A DNA stretch of 10,427 nucleotides from UHGV virus genome UHGV-1714787. The stretch is one strand, 5' to 3'. Shown one piece after another: positions 164 through 5,049 of the stretch; position 1 is the first letter of the stretch; each line of letters opens with the position of its first letter. The notes below the pieces were generated by a model that saw only the letters and a list, made by a program, of their open reading frames with translations, was not told the origin of the DNA and did not search any database. Source of the stretch: a virus. The translations under genes were made by a program, and so were the position numbers.

Positions 164-493
164 CTATGCCACGACCTGTTCAAAATCTGCCGTTATGGTT
201 ACCCACAGCGCCCCCACGCTTGCCGACCATTTACGACAAACCACCCTGATCGGCTTCCAGTCATAAGGTGGCGTCCACTGAAATGCGCGGACGCCACCGT
301 GCCGTTCCAGAAAGGCTTTCAAAGATGGGTGTTCACATTTACGAACACGTATCGTCACGCTGTAAGTCGACAACTGGTTATTCAGTCCCGCCGCACGACG
401 CTGTTCATAACCATCGCCCAGCTTCACTGTCACCACTTTCGGCTCTGATACCACATTCATATCCGGGCGCACTTTCCAGTGAAACGTCTCCAT
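164..493 (-). CDS. M: Minor tail protein M
   Basis: 109-aa ORF; the translation (METFHWKVRPDMNVVSEPKVVTVKLGDGYEQRRAAGLNNQLSTYSVT...FEQVVA) aligns along its length with lambda gpM as recalled (MKTFRWKVKPGMDVASVP...FGDGYSQRAPAGLN...EFEQVVN). Its ATG (493..491) overlaps the tape-measure stop (TAA 495..493) as TAATG. Confidence 0.9.
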   Translation of the reverse strand: METFHWKVRPDMNVVSEPKVVTVKLGDGYEQRRAAGLNNQLSTYSVTIRVRKCEHPSLKAFLERHGGVRAFQWTPPYDWKPIRVVCRKWSASVGALWVTITADFEQVVA

Positions 494-3400
494 TACCGAT
501 ATGCTCCACTTAACCGACCACCATCACGGGCCTGCTGTTGCATAAAGTCCGCTGCCGCTTTTTTCCCAAGGTCATAAACCACCTTCAGGGCAGCCGGACC
601 TATCTGCCCGTTCGTGCCATCGTTATTGATCTCGATGTTGTACTGCGGGGCAAACATCGCCATACCTGAACCACCAATATCCGCCACAACCCCCAGCTTA
701 CCATCAGCACCACGACGCAGTGGCAGAATGGCTTCAGGTCCAGCTTCCCCCATCACACCCGCGCCTTTTGCAAAAGCAAAAAACGTCGGACGGTTAACCA
801 CCGTGCCACTGTAGCGACTCAAATCAGCCGACTGATAAACACCGCCATCAGCATTGGCTACAAAATCAAAAGGCAGCGCGGAAGCAATACCTTTTACCGC
901 TTTCATTAAAGCTATCTGAGCCATGATTCTGGACATATCTGACAGCACAGAAGAGGTGAAGGATTTGAAATTGAGTTTGCCTGTAGTACAGAATGTCGCC
1001 AGCCAGTCACTCATGCTACTGAACGCAGACGTGAACAACTGTTCCACTGTCCCGGCTGTGTTATCCGCTTTCTCAGTGACATTCTGGAGTGCACGCAGGA
1101 CTCCGTTTTTCCAGTCACCCTGAGCAATTTCAAGCTGTTGCCAATAACGGCGATTCTCATTCAGTTGTCGGTTCAGGCTCTCCGTCAGCGCCTGCTCGGC
1201 CTTTCTGTAGTCATCCGTGTTATATGTTCCTTTCTGCTCACTATCCCGCCTCAACTGCTCCAGCTGTTGCTGGTATTTCTGGCGAAGACTCAGTTGTACC
1301 TGATATCGCTGCCGCTGCTGATCACCCATACCCACCGTGGCGATATCCAGGTCATGTTGCTGGCGCTGAGCGCGCTCTTCTTCAGCCAGTTGACTGGTCA
1401 GCTGAATTGTTTTTTTCTTCAGATCGTTGAGTGCCGTCTGTTTCTGAAGCTCCTGCTGTTTTACATCCAGCAGCGTCAGTGCCTGAATCAGTTCATCTTT
1501 ACGGGCCAGCACACTCTTTTCATCTGCCGTCAGTTTTTTCCCGTCCAGATCGCTGATGCGCTGCTGCAGAGCCAGAAGCTGTTTATGCGCTTCTGTCATC
1601 CTGTCAGTGGCAATGCCTGCTGACTGTCTTGCAGCAGCAATCTGTCCTTCCACCTGTGCCTGTTGCTGACTGTACTGCAGCAATAACCGGGTGGCCTCAT
1701 CATTACGGGTTTCGCGTGTTTTTTTCTTACCGGATGCCAGGGCTTTCTCGTAACGTTCATTTTCACGTTGTATCGCCGCATCCCTGACAGCCTGATCGGC
1801 GTACTGCATGGCATTAATACGCGCAATTTCACGCTGATGTCGTGCTGCTTCCGTTTCATTCATCCGGTTCAGTGCAGCATTTTCAGCATTACGGCGTTTC
1901 TGTTGCTCCTGATAATTCCGCTCTGCCTGCTCTTTTGCATCCTGCAAATCCTTCTGGCGTTTTTTCTCCTGAAGCTCGTTAAGACGCTGCTGATCGTACT
2001 CAACCTGAGAAGATGATGCCGTCCAGGGGAGTCTTTTCGCCCGCGACACTTTCTCCTGTAAAGCGGAAATCTGTTCATCCAGCGAGTCTTCACGACCAAT
2101 ATTCATGGCCGCATCCCAGAAACGACTCCATAAATCAGACAGATACTTCAGCGTACTGCCCAGCGCATTGAGGTTATTATCAATATCCGCAGTACGCCGA
2201 CCGGTTTCCTCTGCCAGTGCAGACATGGCTATCCGTGCCGCATCACTGGACCGCCCCTGTTCCCCAAGGACGCGTATCTGCTCAAGCTGAGTGGCAGTAA
2301 GAAAATGCAGCTCATTGTCCAGAGCCTTCGCGGCATTTACAGGATCATCCTTCAGCCGCTTAAACTGATTTATGGTATCGCTGACCGACTGGCCAACCGA
2401 TCGCTCCATCTGTGCGGCAGCTCTCGCCACCATACCGATATCGTTTCCACGAAATGCACCACTCCCCACCACCTGAGCCAGCGCACCGGCTGCAGCATGT
2501 TGCGTGATACCATTCCCGGAAATAGCACGACTGAGCGTCCACAGCTGCCCGGCAGTGACTCCGGCATAATGCCCCGTCAGCGACAGCTGGCGGTTAAATT
2601 CTTCCCCCTCCTTCTGACCGTCATACCAGGCTTTACCCAGACCATAGACAGCCGCGGCAATACCGCCAATAACCCCGCCAAGCATCATGCCTTTCGGTGA
2701 CATCAATGTGTCTATCCATCCGGCACGGTTAGCCAGCGTTATTCCGGATCCCCTCAGCGCACCTAAATTGCCGCGGGCCAGTTCACCTATCAGAACGCCT
2801 ATCTCCTGACGGGCCGCTGCACTTTTCAGACCCAGCGAATGCGTTGCTTTTCCTGCCTGCTCCATTTTGCGGATATACACTTCTGCAGCACTGCTTACCC
2901 CCAGCTGGGCAGCCTTAGCACGAAGCAACTCAGAAGAAGAAAGATTCTGGCGGGTTGCCTGCTCTTTAAGCTGACGGATAAACGCCACTTTCTGTCGGGT
3001 AGCCTCTTCCTCAGCCTGTGTAAGAACACGGGTTTTCGCCGTAACCTCAGAAATCAGCGCCAGATAATCCTGCTGACCAATCCCGCCACTGTTTCTGGCC
3101 TGTCGGATCTGCTGCTGAATACGCTGTAATTCCTGCAGCCCCGCACTGGCCTGTTTTACACTGTCAATCTGACGATAAAACGCGGCAGCCGCTTTATCCT
3201 GAGCCTCCGCCAGAGCCATGGCCTGCGCCTGTTCCTCGCGCATTTTCTGGCTCAGTGCCTCCATGCGCTGGCGGGTTTTCTCCACCTCGCGGGCCATGCG
3301 TTCATGAGCCTGTGCGTTTTTCTCCACCGTCTGCGCATGGACGGATGCGGCTGTTGCAGCCGAAGAAGCCGCCTGCGTTGTCTGCCGGGCGGCCTGAGTC

Positions 3401-3549
3401 TGACGCTCCATAAAACGCTGCATACGGGCAGAAGACCGTTCTGCATCGCTGGCTGCACCATTCAGAAGGTTTTTGATACGGGGAATTTCATTTTTAAACT
3501 CTGCCGCATCAATCCCCAAATCAATGACCAGGTTGGCTATCTGGTCCAT
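493..3549 (-). CDS. H: Tail tape measure protein (lambda gpH-like)
   Basis: Long ORF (track: 493..3579, 1028 aa). The C-terminus (...NNDGTNGQIGPAALKVVYDLGKK...DGGRLSGAYR) matches the lambda gpH C-terminus; there is a long Q/A/E/R-rich coiled-coil-like central region and a Gly-rich hydrophobic segment. I place the start at ATG 3549..3547 (MDQIANLVIDLGIDAAEF, like lambda MAEPVGDLVVDLSLDAARF), preceded by GGAGGTG about 8 nt upstream; the track start at 3579 is the alternative. Confidence 0.9.
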   Translation of the reverse strand: MDQIANLVIDLGIDAAEFKNEIPRIKNLLNGAASDAERSSARMQRFMERQTQAARQTTQAASSAATAASVHAQTVEKNAQAHERMAREVEKTRQRMEALSQKMREEQAQAMALAEAQDKAAAAFYRQIDSVKQASAGLQELQRIQQQIRQARNSGGIGQQDYLALISEVTAKTRVLTQAEEEATRQKVAFIRQLKEQATRQNLSSSELLRAKAAQLGVSSAAEVYIRKMEQAGKATHSLGLKSAAARQEIGVLIGELARGNLGALRGSGITLANRAGWIDTLMSPKGMMLGGVIGGIAAAVYGLGKAWYDGQKEGEEFNRQLSLTGHYAGVTAGQLWTLSRAISGNGITQHAAAGALAQVVGSGAFRGNDIGMVARAAAQMERSVGQSVSDTINQFKRLKDDPVNAAKALDNELHFLTATQLEQIRVLGEQGRSSDAARIAMSALAEETGRRTADIDNNLNALGSTLKYLSDLWSRFWDAAMNIGREDSLDEQISALQEKVSRAKRLPWTASSSQVEYDQQRLNELQEKKRQKDLQDAKEQAERNYQEQQKRRNAENAALNRMNETEAARHQREIARINAMQYADQAVRDAAIQRENERYEKALASGKKKTRETRNDEATRLLLQYSQQQAQVEGQIAAARQSAGIATDRMTEAHKQLLALQQRISDLDGKKLTADEKSVLARKDELIQALTLLDVKQQELQKQTALNDLKKKTIQLTSQLAEEERAQRQQHDLDIATVGMGDQQRQRYQVQLSLRQKYQQQLEQLRRDSEQKGTYNTDDYRKAEQALTESLNRQLNENRRYWQQLEIAQGDWKNGVLRALQNVTEKADNTAGTVEQLFTSAFSSMSDWLATFCTTGKLNFKSFTSSVLSDMSRIMAQIALMKAVKGIASALPFDFVANADGGVYQSADLSRYSGTVVNRPTFFAFAKGAGVMGEAGPEAILPLRRGADGKLGVVADIGGSGMAMFAPQYNIEINNDGTNGQIGPAALKVVYDLGKKAAADFMQQQARDGGRLSGAYR

Positions 3550-3871
3550 AACGCACACCTCCGGAAATACCTTCCCCAAGATGCATCAGTTCTTCGTCCG
3601 TTCGCTCCGGTATCCCGTTCTCTTCCGGTAAAAGGCTGAAATCAGCCACCGCAGCATCACTGCTGCCGGACACCATTCTCACGATCAATGCCTTCAGCGA
3701 GGCAAACTGCGCATCCATCCACACATCACTGAAGCTCTGCATCCGGAAATAATCGCCCCACTCACCAAGCTCAGTGGCCGACATTTCCGACAGCATCCGC
3801 CGCCAGTCTGCCCGCCGGAACTCCCGGGCAAGCCGCATGACAAACTGCATTTCCCGCGTCAGGACTTTTCC
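3521..3871 (-). CDS. T: gpT-like -1 frame extension of the tail assembly chaperone (G-T fusion made by programmed -1 frameshift near the end of G)
   Basis: ORF 3521..3850 is in the -1 frame relative to G and overlaps the 3' end of G. That frame is open from 3883 (bounded upstream by TGA 3886..3884). The heptamer G GAA AAG lies at 3871..3865 on the minus strand, just before the G stop (TGA 3861..3859). Position between the major tail protein and tape measure genes matches the conserved G/GT arrangement in long-tailed phages. Confidence 0.6.
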   Translation of the reverse strand, partial: GKVLTREMQFVMRLAREFRRADWRRMLSEMSATELGEWGDYFRMQSFSDVWMDAQFASLKALIVRMVSGSSDAAVADFSLLPEENGIPERTDEELMHLGEGISGGVRYGPDSQPGH

Positions 3872-4245
3872 GGCGTCAGCACCTCATGCTCCAAATCCCC
3901 GGCATTATCAATGGCCCCCATACCGCTCAGCGACAGAACCATCTCCGCCCCCGCTCCCAGGGCATCATACGACCATGTTGTAATAACGGATGCGTAAAGC
4001 GTCTCAACATCCTGAGACTGTTCCGCATTCCACAGTGAGCGGGAAACCAGCCAGGCATTGATATCCATCCCCATCCGCAGAAAAGCAATCTGTCGTTCAG
4101 CCTCCGGCAGTTCTCCCTCCCCGGCATCAAACTTTGCCGTTCGCTGCTGAACAAACGTCAGATATTCAATTCTCTGCAGCCCGGACAGCTCACTGAGCAC
4201 CACGGACTGTTTTTCATAATTAAACGTGTCCTGTTTCAGAAACAT
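3859..4245 (-). CDS. G: Tail assembly chaperone (lambda gpG-like)
   Basis: The translation from MFLKQDTFNYEKQSVVLSELSGLQRIEYL resembles the lambda gpG N-terminus (MFLKTESFEHNGVTVTLSELSALQRIEHL). Start chosen at ATG 4245..4243 with GGTGGAGA upstream; an adjacent ATG at 4248 and the longer track start at 4287 are alternatives. Confidence 0.8.
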   Translation of the reverse strand: MFLKQDTFNYEKQSVVLSELSGLQRIEYLTFVQQRTAKFDAGEGELPEAERQIAFLRMGMDINAWLVSRSLWNAEQSQDVETLYASVITTWSYDALGAGAEMVLSLSGMGAIDNAGDLEHEVLTPEKS

Positions 4246-4260
4246 CATGTTCTCCACCTG

Positions 4261-4285
4261 TAAAAAAGCCCCGAATAACCGGGGC
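4261..4285 (-). terminator. Rho-independent terminator hairpin between V and G (minus-strand transcript)
   Basis: Minus-strand RNA reads GCCCCG-GUUAUU-CGGGGC followed by UUUUUU(A): a 6-bp all-GC stem (plus strand 4268..4273 pairs with 4280..4285), 6-nt loop, then a U-tract (plus-strand A-run 4262..4267). It sits in the 60-nt gap between the V stop and the G start. Confidence 0.6.
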
Positions 4286-4305
4286 AAATGATGAGTATCG
4301 TCCTG

Positions 4306-5049
4306 TTAACCTGCTGCGCTGACAGTCACCGCAGCCACAGCCACAAAATTCCCGTCAGCGGTCATGCCCACAATGCTGACACTGCCCTGCTTCACGCCTT
4401 TCACCGTGGCCACAAGCCCGTTCAGGGTCACCGTGGCAGTCTGTGGATCTGTCGAATGCACACTGATCGCTTTGTCACTGGCTCCGTCAGGTTTTACTGT
4501 AAAGGTCAGCGTGGTGGTTGCTCCCACTTTTACACTGGCAGATGCCGGTGCCACCGTCAGCCCGGTAACGCTCACGGTTTCAGTGCCTTCTTCTGCCAGA
4601 TACGGACGCCCCACACCGCTGATTTTCACTGTGCGGGTCATCACGTCTTTTGAGGCAATGGTTTTACCCAGTGAACTCAGCCAGCCACGGAAAACATCAA
4701 CAGTACCGTTGGGATATTTGATACGAAACGCGCAGACTTCACCGGAGTCGAACAACTGAACCAGTTTTTTCTGCCCGCTGTCACCCGGACGCCAGGCCAG
4801 CGTCGCCGAAGTATCACCGACGGATTTCTGCCCCTGGGTTGTCGTTTTCCAGTCTGCATCTTCATCATCGAGATAAGTGTCATCTTCTGCATCAGCGGTC
4901 ATTTCGCCAGGCTGCAGATCCTTCACCATCGCAAGACGCAGCCAGTCAGTGTCCGATAAAGGGTTCGCAAACGCATCGCCCTTGCCGGTGTACATCCAGA
5001 ACGTCGTTCCCGCACCTTTCGTTTTTGCCAGTGGATTTGGTGTGGTCAT
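4306..5049 (-). CDS. V: Major tail protein (lambda gpV-like) with C-terminal Ig-like domain
   Basis: The translation from MTTPNPLAKTKGAGTTFWMYTGKGDAFANPLSD...YLDDEDADW...GQKSVGDTS...NGTVDVFRGW...TRTVK aligns with lambda gpV ([33 protein letters not shown]...YLDDEDADW...). The C-terminal ~90 aa are Thr/Val/Ala-rich beta-like sequence, as in the gpV Ig-like domain. ATG 5049..5047 is preceded by a strong SD AAGGAGGT at 5061..5054; the track start at 5124 is rejected. Confidence 0.9.
   Translation of the reverse strand: MTTPNPLAKTKGAGTTFWMYTGKGDAFANPLSDTDWLRLAMVKDLQPGEMTADAEDDTYLDDEDADWKTTTQGQKSVGDTSATLAWRPGDSGQKKLVQLFDSGEVCAFRIKYPNGTVDVFRGWLSSLGKTIASKDVMTRTVKISGVGRPYLAEEGTETVSVTGLTVAPASASVKVGATTTLTFTVKPDGASDKAISVHSTDPQTATVTLNGLVATVKGVKQGSVSIVGMTADGNFVAVAAVTVSAAG

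What the first reader, a model, noticed from the sequence alone, without database searches (positions are those of the whole stretch)
3859..3886. G/T programmed -1 frameshift site with a non-lambda heptamer (G GAA AAG)
The last eight codons of G (GAG GTG CTG ACG CCG GAA AAG TCC TGA) overlap an open -1 frame that continues into the 109-aa T ORF. That frame is closed upstream by TGA at 3886..3884, so the shift must occur within 3862..3883. The only slippery-looking element there is G GAA AAG (3871..3865); lambda uses G GGA AAG as I recall. The A-site AAG-to-AAA slip is standard, but a P-site GAA-to-GGA re-pairing is not canonical, so this may be a single-tRNA (A AAG) slip or a lower-efficiency variant.
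Basis: partly seen in the sequence, partly recalled or inferred. Interest (0 to 1): 0.5.

Follow-up and report, generated by a model that had tools for sequence, protein, structure and literature searches.

The report
Known N15-type G/T tail frameshift site
This is the ordinary programmed -1 ribosomal frameshift site of a lambda-like prophage's tail-assembly chaperone genes G and T; its G GAA AAG motif differs from lambda's by one base but is the same motif already annotated in phages N15 and phi80, and it is the commonest form in this gene family.

Summary
On the minus strand, gene G (4248..3859) ends CCG GAA AAG TCC TGA. The -1 frame is closed by TGA at 3886..3884 and then stays open to 3521 through a Phage_tail_T domain. 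G GAA AAG (3871..3865) is the only in-register site in the 22-nt overlap that allows cognate A-site re-pairing.

The window is the tail module of an mEp460/cdtI-type prophage found in about a third of complete E. coli genomes.

The heptamer is not unusual:
- It sits at the homologous position in N15 and phi80, whose GenBank records annotate it as the slippery sequence. Gifsy-2 has it too.
- It occurs in 44-45 of 57-58 distinct G/T junctions sampled across Enterobacterales. Lambda's G GGA AAG occurs in 8-9.

Heptamer position 1 is a four-fold synonymous site. It changed once on the family tree, against 18-21 changes at neighbouring synonymous sites. This favours a seven-base, two-tRNA slip, with tRNA-Glu re-pairing GAA to GGA through a central G.U pair, over a pure A_AAG slip.

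The ATG at 3850 is a Leu, Arg or Val codon in most homologs (ATG in 5 of 59 junctions). No fused G-T homolog was found. No conserved stimulatory RNA structure was detected.

No experiment on this locus was found. Verdict: real, functional-looking and already known. Interest is low.

The parts
3859..4248 (-). Gene G, the tail assembly chaperone and zero-frame product. It is 129 aa from the ATG at 4248; PGAP starts it at the next ATG, 4245. It ends ...LTPEKS-TGA.
   Evidence: Translation. Pfam PF06894 Phage_TAC_2, E = 1.4e-40. PGAP calls the identical gene in E. coli CUVET20-1667 'phage tail assembly chaperone G'.
3865..3871 (-). Slippery heptamer G GAA AAG. In the zero frame it reads (CC)G GAA AAG; in the -1 frame it reads GGA AAA G. 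This is the proposed site of the -1 shift.
   Evidence: The same heptamer sits at the homologous position in N15 and phi80, annotated as 'slippery sequence for -1 translational frameshift'. It is present in 44-45 of 57-58 distinct family junctions.
3884..3886 (-). TGA stop in the -1 frame. It closes the T frame upstream and sets the 5' limit of the shift window.
3521..3865 (-). T segment of the GT fusion, read in the -1 frame after the slip (GTC CTG ACG ...; 114 codons plus a stop at 3523..3521). The predicted GT product is join(4248..3865, 3865..3521) on the minus strand, 242 aa.
   Evidence: Pfam PF06223 Phage_tail_T, E = 5.1e-15. The sequence aligns to lambda, N15, phi80 and Gifsy-2 GT from the Lys of the heptamer onward; K128 is invariant.
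3848..3850 (-). The ATG that annotation pipelines use as the start of a stand-alone 109-aa 'T'. It is probably an internal Met codon of GT and not a real start.
   Evidence: Searches show the annotations. The homologous codon is CTG, CTT, CTA, CGN or GTG in 54 of 59 junctions. In 37 of 59 junctions there is no ATG at all between the heptamer and the LARE block. The only upstream purine run is GGGAA, 0-2 nt from the ATG.
3881..3885 (-). Shine-Dalgarno-like GAGGT, with 9-10 nt between it and the heptamer. It is a possible but unproven 5' stimulator.
   Evidence: The spacing resembles the dnaX SD-like stimulator described in PMC6924986. An SD-like tetramer in the -18..-6 interval occurs in only 15 of 46 G GAA AAG junctions, so it is not a conserved part of the signal.
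4306..5049 (-). Gene V, the major tail tube protein, immediately upstream of G. It provides the gene-order context.
   Evidence: Pfam Phage_TTP_12, E = 1.9e-66. PGAP coordinates mapped.
493..3549 (-). Gene H, the tape measure protein, immediately downstream. It overlaps the end of T by 29 nt. It provides the gene-order context.
   Evidence: Pfam TMP_2, Tape_meas_lam_C and TMP_4. PGAP start mapped.

Best explanation
The site is the programmed -1 ribosomal frameshift signal of a lambda-family tail assembly chaperone pair.

Most ribosomes translate G to its stop at 3861..3859 and make gpG. A minority slip back one base when GAA (Glu) is in the P site and AAG (Lys) is in the A site of G GAA AAG (3871..3865). 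They then read GTC CTG ACG... in the T frame to 3521 and make a 242-aa gpGT fusion (...LTPEK|VLTREMQF...).

By analogy with lambda, the G part binds the tape measure protein and the T part recruits the tail tube protein. The low GT:G ratio would be set by the slip frequency.

Inferred mechanism of the slip:
- tRNA-Lys re-pairs perfectly, AAG to AAA.
- tRNA-Glu (anticodon mnm5s2U-U-C) re-pairs GAA to GGA with G-C, a central G.U and A-U.
- The motif therefore acts as a seven-base, two-tRNA slippery sequence even though it is not a formal X_XXY_YYZ heptamer.

Shown here: the sequence anatomy, the homology, the positional conservation and the nucleotide-level constraint. Inferred: the slip itself, its efficiency and the two-tRNA mechanism.
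For: Anatomy and register.

Family and gene order V-G-T-H.

Precedent in public records:
- The identical heptamer sits at the homologous codon in N15 and phi80, whose depositors annotate it as the slippery sequence. phi80 also carries a joined gpG-T CDS.
- Gifsy-2 has the identical CCG GAA AAG TCC TGA, and its T is annotated as part of a frameshift hybrid protein.

Family survey, with the site defined only by the -1-frame protein motif:
- There were 57-58 distinct junctions. Of these, 44-45 are G GAA AAG, 8-9 G GGA AAG, 1-2 A AAA AAG, 2 G GCA AAA and 1 G GGA AAA.
- The Lys of the heptamer is invariant in the GT alignment.
- Sequence variability has zero-frame periodicity upstream of the heptamer and -1-frame periodicity downstream.

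Nucleotide-level constraint:
- Heptamer position 1 is the third base of GCG, CCG, CTG, GTG or ACG; Sodalis has TTG. It shows 1 Fitch change on the neighbour-joining tree.
- The five preceding third positions show 18-21 changes each.
- The first and second bases of that same codon show 9 and 3 changes.
- Heptamer position 3 flipped between A and G at least 6 times, so the N15-type and lambda-type motifs interconvert freely in nature.

Lambda biology: the G:GT ratio of about 30:1 and the chaperone roles are from PMC5009743.
Against: - No experimental demonstration of a GT product was found for this prophage lineage, or for any G GAA AAG site, in the searchable library.
- In a reconstituted E. 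coli system, AUG GAA AAG (the same seven bases) gave mainly zero-frame product. It was used as the 'less slippery, one-tRNA' control against G GGA AAG (PMC6924986).
- The A_AAG tetramer alone gave about 0.15% frameshifting without a stimulator, rising to 5.6% with a strong pseudoknot (PMC4066793).
- No convincing downstream structure was found here; fold z-scores were -1.2 and -1.7.
- The SD-like element is not conserved across the family.
- Two related junctions (G GCA AAA TAG) keep the position-1 G although P-site re-pairing would be poor. This weakens the re-pairing argument slightly.
- This particular prophage copy carries an amber stop in its protease/capsid gene. The signal may therefore no longer be under selection in this host.
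Confidence: 0.85

Rival explanations
1. The frameshift product is the same, but it arises from a single-tRNA slip. Only tRNA-Lys slips on A_AAG, as in the hexanucleotide/tetranucleotide class (for example IS1222 CGA_AAG). The P-site tRNA-Glu does not re-pair, and heptamer position 1 is irrelevant.
For: - G GAA AAG is not an X_XXY_YYZ heptamer.
- PMC6924986 treats it as a one-tRNA site with a second-position mismatch.
- PMC5009743 describes utilised A_AAG sites whose efficiency depends on the two 5' bases.
- The G GCA AAA TAG variants in Kluyvera and Ewingella can only use A-site re-pairing.
Against: - Heptamer position 1 is a four-fold degenerate site. It changed once, against 18-21 changes at neighbouring synonymous sites across 58 junctions, while the same codon's amino acid changed repeatedly. 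A pure A_AAG model predicts no such constraint.
- The only position-1 change is the concerted switch to A AAA AAG, which preserves two-tRNA re-pairing.
Confidence: 0.2
2. T is made on its own by initiation at the ATG at 3850..3848, as current annotations draw it. No frameshift is needed.
For: - A 109-aa ATG-started ORF exists.
- The mEp460 and Tritos records and PGAP annotate it that way.
Against: - The ATG is present in only 5 of 59 junctions. It is Leu, Arg or Val elsewhere, and 37 of 59 junctions have no ATG before the conserved LARE block.
- The -1-frame residues upstream of it (GKVLTRE) align with lambda, N15 and Gifsy-2 GT.
- There is no properly spaced Shine-Dalgarno sequence.
- From established knowledge (Levin, Hendrix and Casjens 1993, cited in PMC5009743), lambda T is made only as GT.
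Confidence: 0.04
3. The reading frame is changed by RNA polymerase slippage on the A4 run, not by the ribosome.
For: A run of four A residues lies at the junction.
Against: - From established knowledge (reviewed in PMC5009743), productive transcriptional slippage needs much longer homopolymer runs, typically at least 7-9.
- The conserved features (G at position 1, G at position 7, exact codon register) are those of ribosomal slippage.
Confidence: 0.01

Closest known systems
Phage N15 genes 14/15 and phage phi80 gpG/gpG-T (GenBank NC_001901, FN582354)
   Same: - Same protein families.
- Same V-G-T-H gene order.
- Same heptamer, G GAA AAG, at the homologous Glu-Lys codons. The depositors annotate it as the -1 slippery sequence.
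   Different: - GT identity to the window protein is only 37-39% (using N15 and the phi80-like mEp213).
- The preceding codon is GCG (Ala) rather than CCG (Pro).
- Their G stop lies 5 codons after the heptamer; here it lies 1 codon after.
- They have no SD-like GAGG upstream.
Salmonella prophage Gifsy-2 STM1039 / STM1041.1n
   Same: - It is the closest diverged relative, at 55-56% GT identity.
- It has the identical CCG GAA AAG TCC TGA junction.
- Its T is annotated as part of a frameshift hybrid protein.
- It also has an SD-like GAGGA about 9 nt upstream.
   Different: There is no ATG at the position of window 3850; the codon is CTT. The -1 frame opens 6 nt further upstream.
Phage lambda G / G-T (Levin, Hendrix and Casjens 1993; Xu, Hendrix and Duda 2004, 2013, 2014)
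   Same: - Homologous G and T domains.
- The slip occurs at the homologous Lys codon.
- The same GK(V) junction appears in the -1 frame.
- The presumed function is the same: chaperone for the tape measure protein and tail tube polymerisation (PMC5009743).
   Different: - Lambda's heptamer is G GGA AAG, which has G at position 3 where the window has A.
- Its P-site tRNA is tRNA-Gly, with the G.U pair at the wobble position. Here it is tRNA-Glu, with the G.U pair at the middle position.
- Lambda's frameshift is experimentally proven; this one is not.
E. coli dnaX and the IS-element A_AAG motifs (A AAA AAG; IS1222 G CGA AAG)
   Same: All use the shift-prone single E. coli tRNA-Lys moving from AAG to AAA in the A site. 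dnaX also has an SD-like element about 10 nt upstream, as this window does (PMC6924986, PMC5009743).
   Different: - The genes are unrelated.
- dnaX needs a strong downstream stem-loop and shifts at 50-80%. No such structure is evident here, and only a few per cent would be needed.

Membership tests
Lambda-type tail assembly chaperone G/GT programmed -1 frameshift | Two overlapping ORFs lie between the major tail (tube) gene and the tape measure gene. | tested here: met
   The order V (4306..5049), G (3859..4248), T frame (3521..3883), H (493..3549) is supported.
Lambda-type tail assembly chaperone G/GT programmed -1 frameshift | The upstream ORF is a gpG homolog (Pfam Phage_TAC_2) and the downstream ORF is a gpT homolog (Pfam Phage_tail_T). 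| tested here: met
   PF06894 at 1.4e-40 and PF06223 at 5.1e-15, both above the gathering cut-offs.
Lambda-type tail assembly chaperone G/GT programmed -1 frameshift | The downstream ORF is in the -1 frame relative to G and lacks a conserved start of its own. Its coding conservation extends up to the shift site. | tested here: met
   Frame arithmetic. The ATG is conserved in 5 of 59 junctions. The -1-frame block GK[VA]... is conserved directly after the heptamer. The periodicity of variability switches frame at the heptamer.
Lambda-type tail assembly chaperone G/GT programmed -1 frameshift | A slippery sequence lies in the correct register inside the overlap, at the position homologous to lambda's G GGA AAG. 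| tested here: met
   G GAA AAG at 3871..3865 aligns codon for codon with the lambda, N15 and phi80 sites.
Lambda-type tail assembly chaperone G/GT programmed -1 frameshift | A GT fusion protein is made at a low fixed ratio to G and is required for tail assembly. | not testable with these tools
   This needs a reporter assay, western blot, mass spectrometry or genetics. No published test for this lineage was found.
Canonical X_XXY_YYZ tandem-slippage heptamer | Positions 1-3 are identical and positions 4-6 are identical, so both tRNAs keep their first two base pairs after the shift. | tested here: not met
   Positions 1-3 are G, G, A. The P-site GAA-to-GGA re-pairing has a central G.U pair (PMC6924986 calls it a second-position mismatch). 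The motif behaves like a heptamer in evolution but is not a formal member.
A_AAG tetranucleotide / NNA_AAG hexanucleotide single-tRNA motifs | An A_AAG tetramer is in register, and efficiency does not depend on the base at heptamer position 1. | tested here: inconclusive
   A_AAG is present in register. However, position 1 is under strong constraint, with 1 change against 18-21. That argues against independence from position 1. No functional assay is available.

The most novel reading that the evidence does not exclude
G GAA AAG is a genuine two-tRNA slippery heptamer and not a crippled one. The P-site tRNA-Glu tolerates a central U35.G pair on GGA.

On this reading, selection keeps the position-1 G at a four-fold degenerate site across Enterobacterales. 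The motif is the preferred G/T signal in this family and interconverts repeatedly with lambda's G GGA AAG.

If so, the bacterial -1 motif rules (X_XXY_YYZ or Z_ZZN) would need a third class. The in vitro label 'one-tRNA, unfavourable' would understate what the motif does in vivo.
Probability: 0.5. Interest if true: 0.3.

Novelty: already known. Interest (0 to 1): 0.12.

Why it matters
For this window the finding mainly corrects annotation. The 109-aa 'tail assembly protein T' drawn from the ATG at 3850 in PGAP and several phage records is almost certainly the C-terminal part of a 242-aa GT fusion, join(4248..3865, 3865..3521). That gene model recurs in about 1,850 complete E. coli genomes.

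For frameshifting research, the family survey gives a small, testable point. A motif used in vitro as a poorly slippery control is the commonest natural G/T signal in the sampled enterobacterial prophages, and its first base is under nucleotide-level selection. Nothing here changes the known biology of tail assembly chaperones.

Tried and rejected
1. The viral-contig scan with the T protein returned 80 near-identical (99-100%) loci. They confirmed invariance of the heptamer within the mEp460 clade but gave no comparative power.

2. I looked for a downstream stimulatory structure. The 105-nt and 161-nt folds are no better than shuffles (z = -1.2 and -1.7). The predicted helices are not retained in Gifsy-2 or N15-type sequences by eye. 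I did not run a covariation analysis, because protein-coding conservation confounds it.

3. I tested the SD-like GAGGT as a conserved stimulator. It is present in only 15 of 46 G GAA AAG junctions, so I kept it only as a lineage-specific possibility.

4. I considered other shift sites within 3883..3862. No other zero-frame codon can re-pair in the -1 frame (direct reading).

5. I rejected independent initiation of T, transcriptional slippage and fused G-T homologs (see the rival explanations).

6. Some literature could not be read. Licznar 2003 (PMC212731), Xu 2004 (Mol Cell) and the phi80 genome paper are not held, and one phrase search returned nothing. As a result, I could not obtain the measured efficiency of GAA_AAG in vivo or what Xu et al. 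list for N15. Anything I say about those papers rests on reviews or memory.

7. I initially counted the five different NNG codons before GAA as independent evidence. I dropped that argument because they are single first- or second-base steps from each other. I replaced it with the parsimony comparison of change counts.

Full report
**What is in the sequence**

All genes in this part of the window lie on the minus strand.
- The G reading frame ends ...GAG GTG CTG ACG CCG GAA AAG TCC TGA, with the stop at 3861..3859.
- The frame one base back reads TGA (3886..3884) GGT GCT GAC GCC GGA AAA GTC CTG ACG CGG GAA ATG CAG..., and stays open to a stop at 3523..3521.
- The mechanical ORF list shows the 142-aa TTG-started ORF 3859..4287, of which G is the ATG-started part from 4248. 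It also shows the 109-aa ATG ORF 3521..3850.
- G GAA AAG occupies 3871..3865, in the register needed for a -1 slip.

Of the zero-frame codons inside the 22-nt overlap, only AAG can re-pair cognately in the -1 frame (to AAA). GAA to GGA gives G-C, G.U, A-U. The others cannot re-pair.

The bare heptamer is not rare, with 5 copies in the window against 1.6 expected. The other two coding-strand copies are out of register with their ORFs.

**What the locus is**

- G matches Pfam Phage_TAC_2 (lambda gpG) at 1.4e-40.
- The -1 ORF matches Phage_tail_T at 5.1e-15.
- The upstream gene is a lambda-type tail tube protein.
- The downstream gene is a lambda-type tape measure protein.

The DNA is 98-99% identical to phages mEp460, cdtI, Ayreon, Tritos and phi458. 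It is at least 95% identical to prophages in 1,848 of 5,426 complete E. coli genomes, including O157:H7 strains.

None of the close records inspected draws a joined GT coding sequence. mEp460, Tritos and PGAP annotate a stand-alone T from the ATG equivalent to 3850. Ayreon calls a shorter ORF 'GpGT-like'.

**Comparison with related phages**

I extracted the G/T junction from twelve diverged phages found by tblastn with the predicted GT fusion.
- Lambda, PhiR5_1 and PhiR12_1 have G GGA AAG.
- VT1-Sakai and an Stx1 phage have A AAA AAG.
- N15, phi80, mEp213, mEp237, Gifsy-2, an Enterobacter phage and a Klebsiella phage all have G GAA AAG, at the codon homologous to lambda's site.

In the N15 record, bases 10027..10033 carry the feature 'slippery sequence for -1 translational frameshift'. 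In the phi80 record, bases 10194..10200 carry the same feature, and phi80 also has a joined gpG-T CDS. I read those bases directly and both are GGAAAAG.

Gifsy-2 is 55-56% identical in GT. It has the same CCG GAA AAG TCC TGA as the window, and its T is annotated as part of a frameshift hybrid.

The 'non-lambda' heptamer is therefore the N15/phi80 heptamer and is already in public annotation.

**Family survey**

An alignment of eight GT fusions (the slip-site Lys is invariant) was used to scan one genome per bacterial species. I located the site in each locus using only the -1-frame protein motif that follows it, leaving the first three heptamer bases free.

The 57-58 distinct junction contexts were distributed as follows:

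| Heptamer | Junctions |
|---|---|
| G GAA AAG | 44-45 |
| G GGA AAG | 8-9 |
| A AAA AAG | 1-2 |
| G GCA AAA followed by TAG | 2 |
| G GGA AAA followed by TAG | 1 |

- Loci that my first filter missed (Proteus, Xenorhabdus, Providencia, Klebsiella spallanzanii, Sodalis) also have a Leu-Glu-Lys junction (CTG or TTG GAA AAG read directly for the last two) and the -1 arrangement.
- No locus has G and T fused in one frame.
- The sample is biased towards relatives of the query. 'Majority form' therefore applies to this sample only.

**Evidence that the ribosome changes frame at the heptamer**

- The -1-frame peptide immediately after the heptamer is conserved across the family: GK-V/A-L/F-x-x-E-L/M-x-F-x-x-x-L-A-R-E-F. 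The -1 frame upstream of the heptamer is unconserved and is closed at varying distances.
- Column variability shows third-position periodicity in the G frame upstream of the heptamer and in the T frame downstream.
- The ATG at 3850 is ATG in only 5 of 59 junctions and is CTG in 35. In 37 of 59 junctions there is no ATG before the conserved LARE block.
- The bases before the window's ATG offer no properly spaced Shine-Dalgarno sequence.

Independent initiation of T is therefore very unlikely.

**One tRNA or two?**

Heptamer position 1 is the third base of the codon before GAA. That codon is GCG, CCG, CTG, GTG or ACG in the survey, and TTG in Sodalis. All except TTG belong to four-fold degenerate families.

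On a neighbour-joining tree built from the 120 nt downstream of the heptamer, Fitch parsimony gives the following:
- 1 change at position 1, which is the concerted switch to A AAA AAG;
- 18-21 changes at each of the five preceding third positions;
- 9 and 3 changes at the first and second bases of the same codon.

A pure A_AAG slip predicts no constraint at position 1. A two-tRNA slip predicts it, because tRNA-Glu must keep its C36-G pair on GGA.

Heptamer position 3 switched between A and G at least six times. The N15-type and lambda-type motifs therefore appear to be interchangeable in nature. In both, the P-site tRNA ends up with exactly one G.U pair: at the middle position for Glu (GAA to GGA) and at the wobble position for Gly (GGA to GGG). 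This is an inference from anticodon sequences, which are established knowledge.

One caveat applies. Two related junctions (G GCA AAA TAG) keep the position-1 G although re-pairing there would be poor.

**Efficiency and stimulators**

The literature points to low intrinsic slipperiness.
- Peng et al. 2019 used AUG GAA AAG, the same seven bases, as the 'less slippery' control. They saw mainly zero-frame product in a purified E. coli system (PMC6924986).
- Sharma et al. 2014 measured about 0.15% for tetramers without a stimulator, and 5.6% for A_AAG with the IS3 pseudoknot (PMC4066793).
- Lambda needs only about one GT per 30 G (PMC5009743).

I found no convincing 3' structure; the fold z-scores were -1.2 and -1.7. 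The window has an SD-like GAGGT separated from the heptamer by 9-10 nt, at dnaX-like spacing, and Gifsy-2 has GAGGA at similar spacing. Only 15 of 46 G GAA AAG junctions have any SD-like tetramer in that interval. The actual frameshift frequency here is unknown.

**Status of this particular copy**

The window carries TAG at 7754..7752, inside the ClpP-like protease/major capsid fusion gene. The near-identical prophage in strain CUVET20-1667 has CAG there. Among 1,504 E. coli records matching a 57-mer centred on the site, only strain Z247 matches exactly. There, PGAP flags the gene as a pseudogene with an internal stop. This prophage is probably head-defective, so the intact G/T signal may be inherited and not currently selected.

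**Verdict**

It is not new. The same heptamer at the same site is annotated in N15 and phi80, and the G/GT frameshift is textbook phage biology.

The analysis adds two modest points. G GAA AAG dominates the sampled family, and its first base is under nucleotide-level selection. Both argue that it works as a seven-base motif. Interest is low.

Noticed in passing
window 7752..7754 (minus strand): There is an in-frame amber stop (CGC TAG GCG) inside the ClpP-like prohead protease/major capsid fusion gene, where the close relative CUVET20-1667 has CAG. Of 1,504 E. coli records matching a 57-mer centred on the site, only strain Z247 matches exactly. PGAP marks the gene there as a pseudogene with an internal stop. 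This prophage copy is probably head-defective.
   Followed up: yes
window 4262..4285 (minus strand), between V and G: A GC-rich hairpin (GCCCCG-GTTATT-CGGGGC) is followed by T6. It lies between the stop of the tail tube gene and the start of G. The mEp460 and Ayreon records annotate it as a rho-independent terminator. It may lower G/T/H transcription relative to V.
   Followed up: partly
family junctions, loci L086-L171 (offsets -14..-12 from the heptamer; window 3885..3883): A GAR (Glu) codon 14 nt upstream of the heptamer is nearly invariant: G in 54 of 58 and A in 52 of 58 junctions. The rest of G's C-terminal tail varies freely. The G stop falls only 0, 1 or 5 codons after the heptamer in every junction. 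The reason for either regularity is unknown.
   Followed up: no
L106 (Kluyvera genomosp. 1) and L108 (Ewingella americana), G/T junction: A variant junction reads CTG GCA AAA TAG. Only the A-site AAA can re-pair (A_AAA), and the G stop codon directly follows. This may be a stop-adjacent single-tRNA version of the signal.
   Followed up: no
L148-L160 (genome-contig hits from Neobacillus, Oceanobacillus, Kitasatospora, Pseudomonas, Shewanella, Chromatium, Leeuwenhoekiella and others): Ten assemblies from unrelated phyla carry a G/T junction identical to phage lambda's. Several of the contigs are short or low-coverage. This looks like lambda DNA contamination of the assemblies rather than real prophages.
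   Followed up: no
window 10374..10427: The best E. coli matches to the whole window stop at 10373. The last 54 bases are not covered by those hits.
   Followed up: no
window 3521..3549 (minus strand): The end of the T frame overlaps the start of the tape measure gene (ATG at 3549) by 29 nt. This is a lambda-like arrangement.
   Followed up: no
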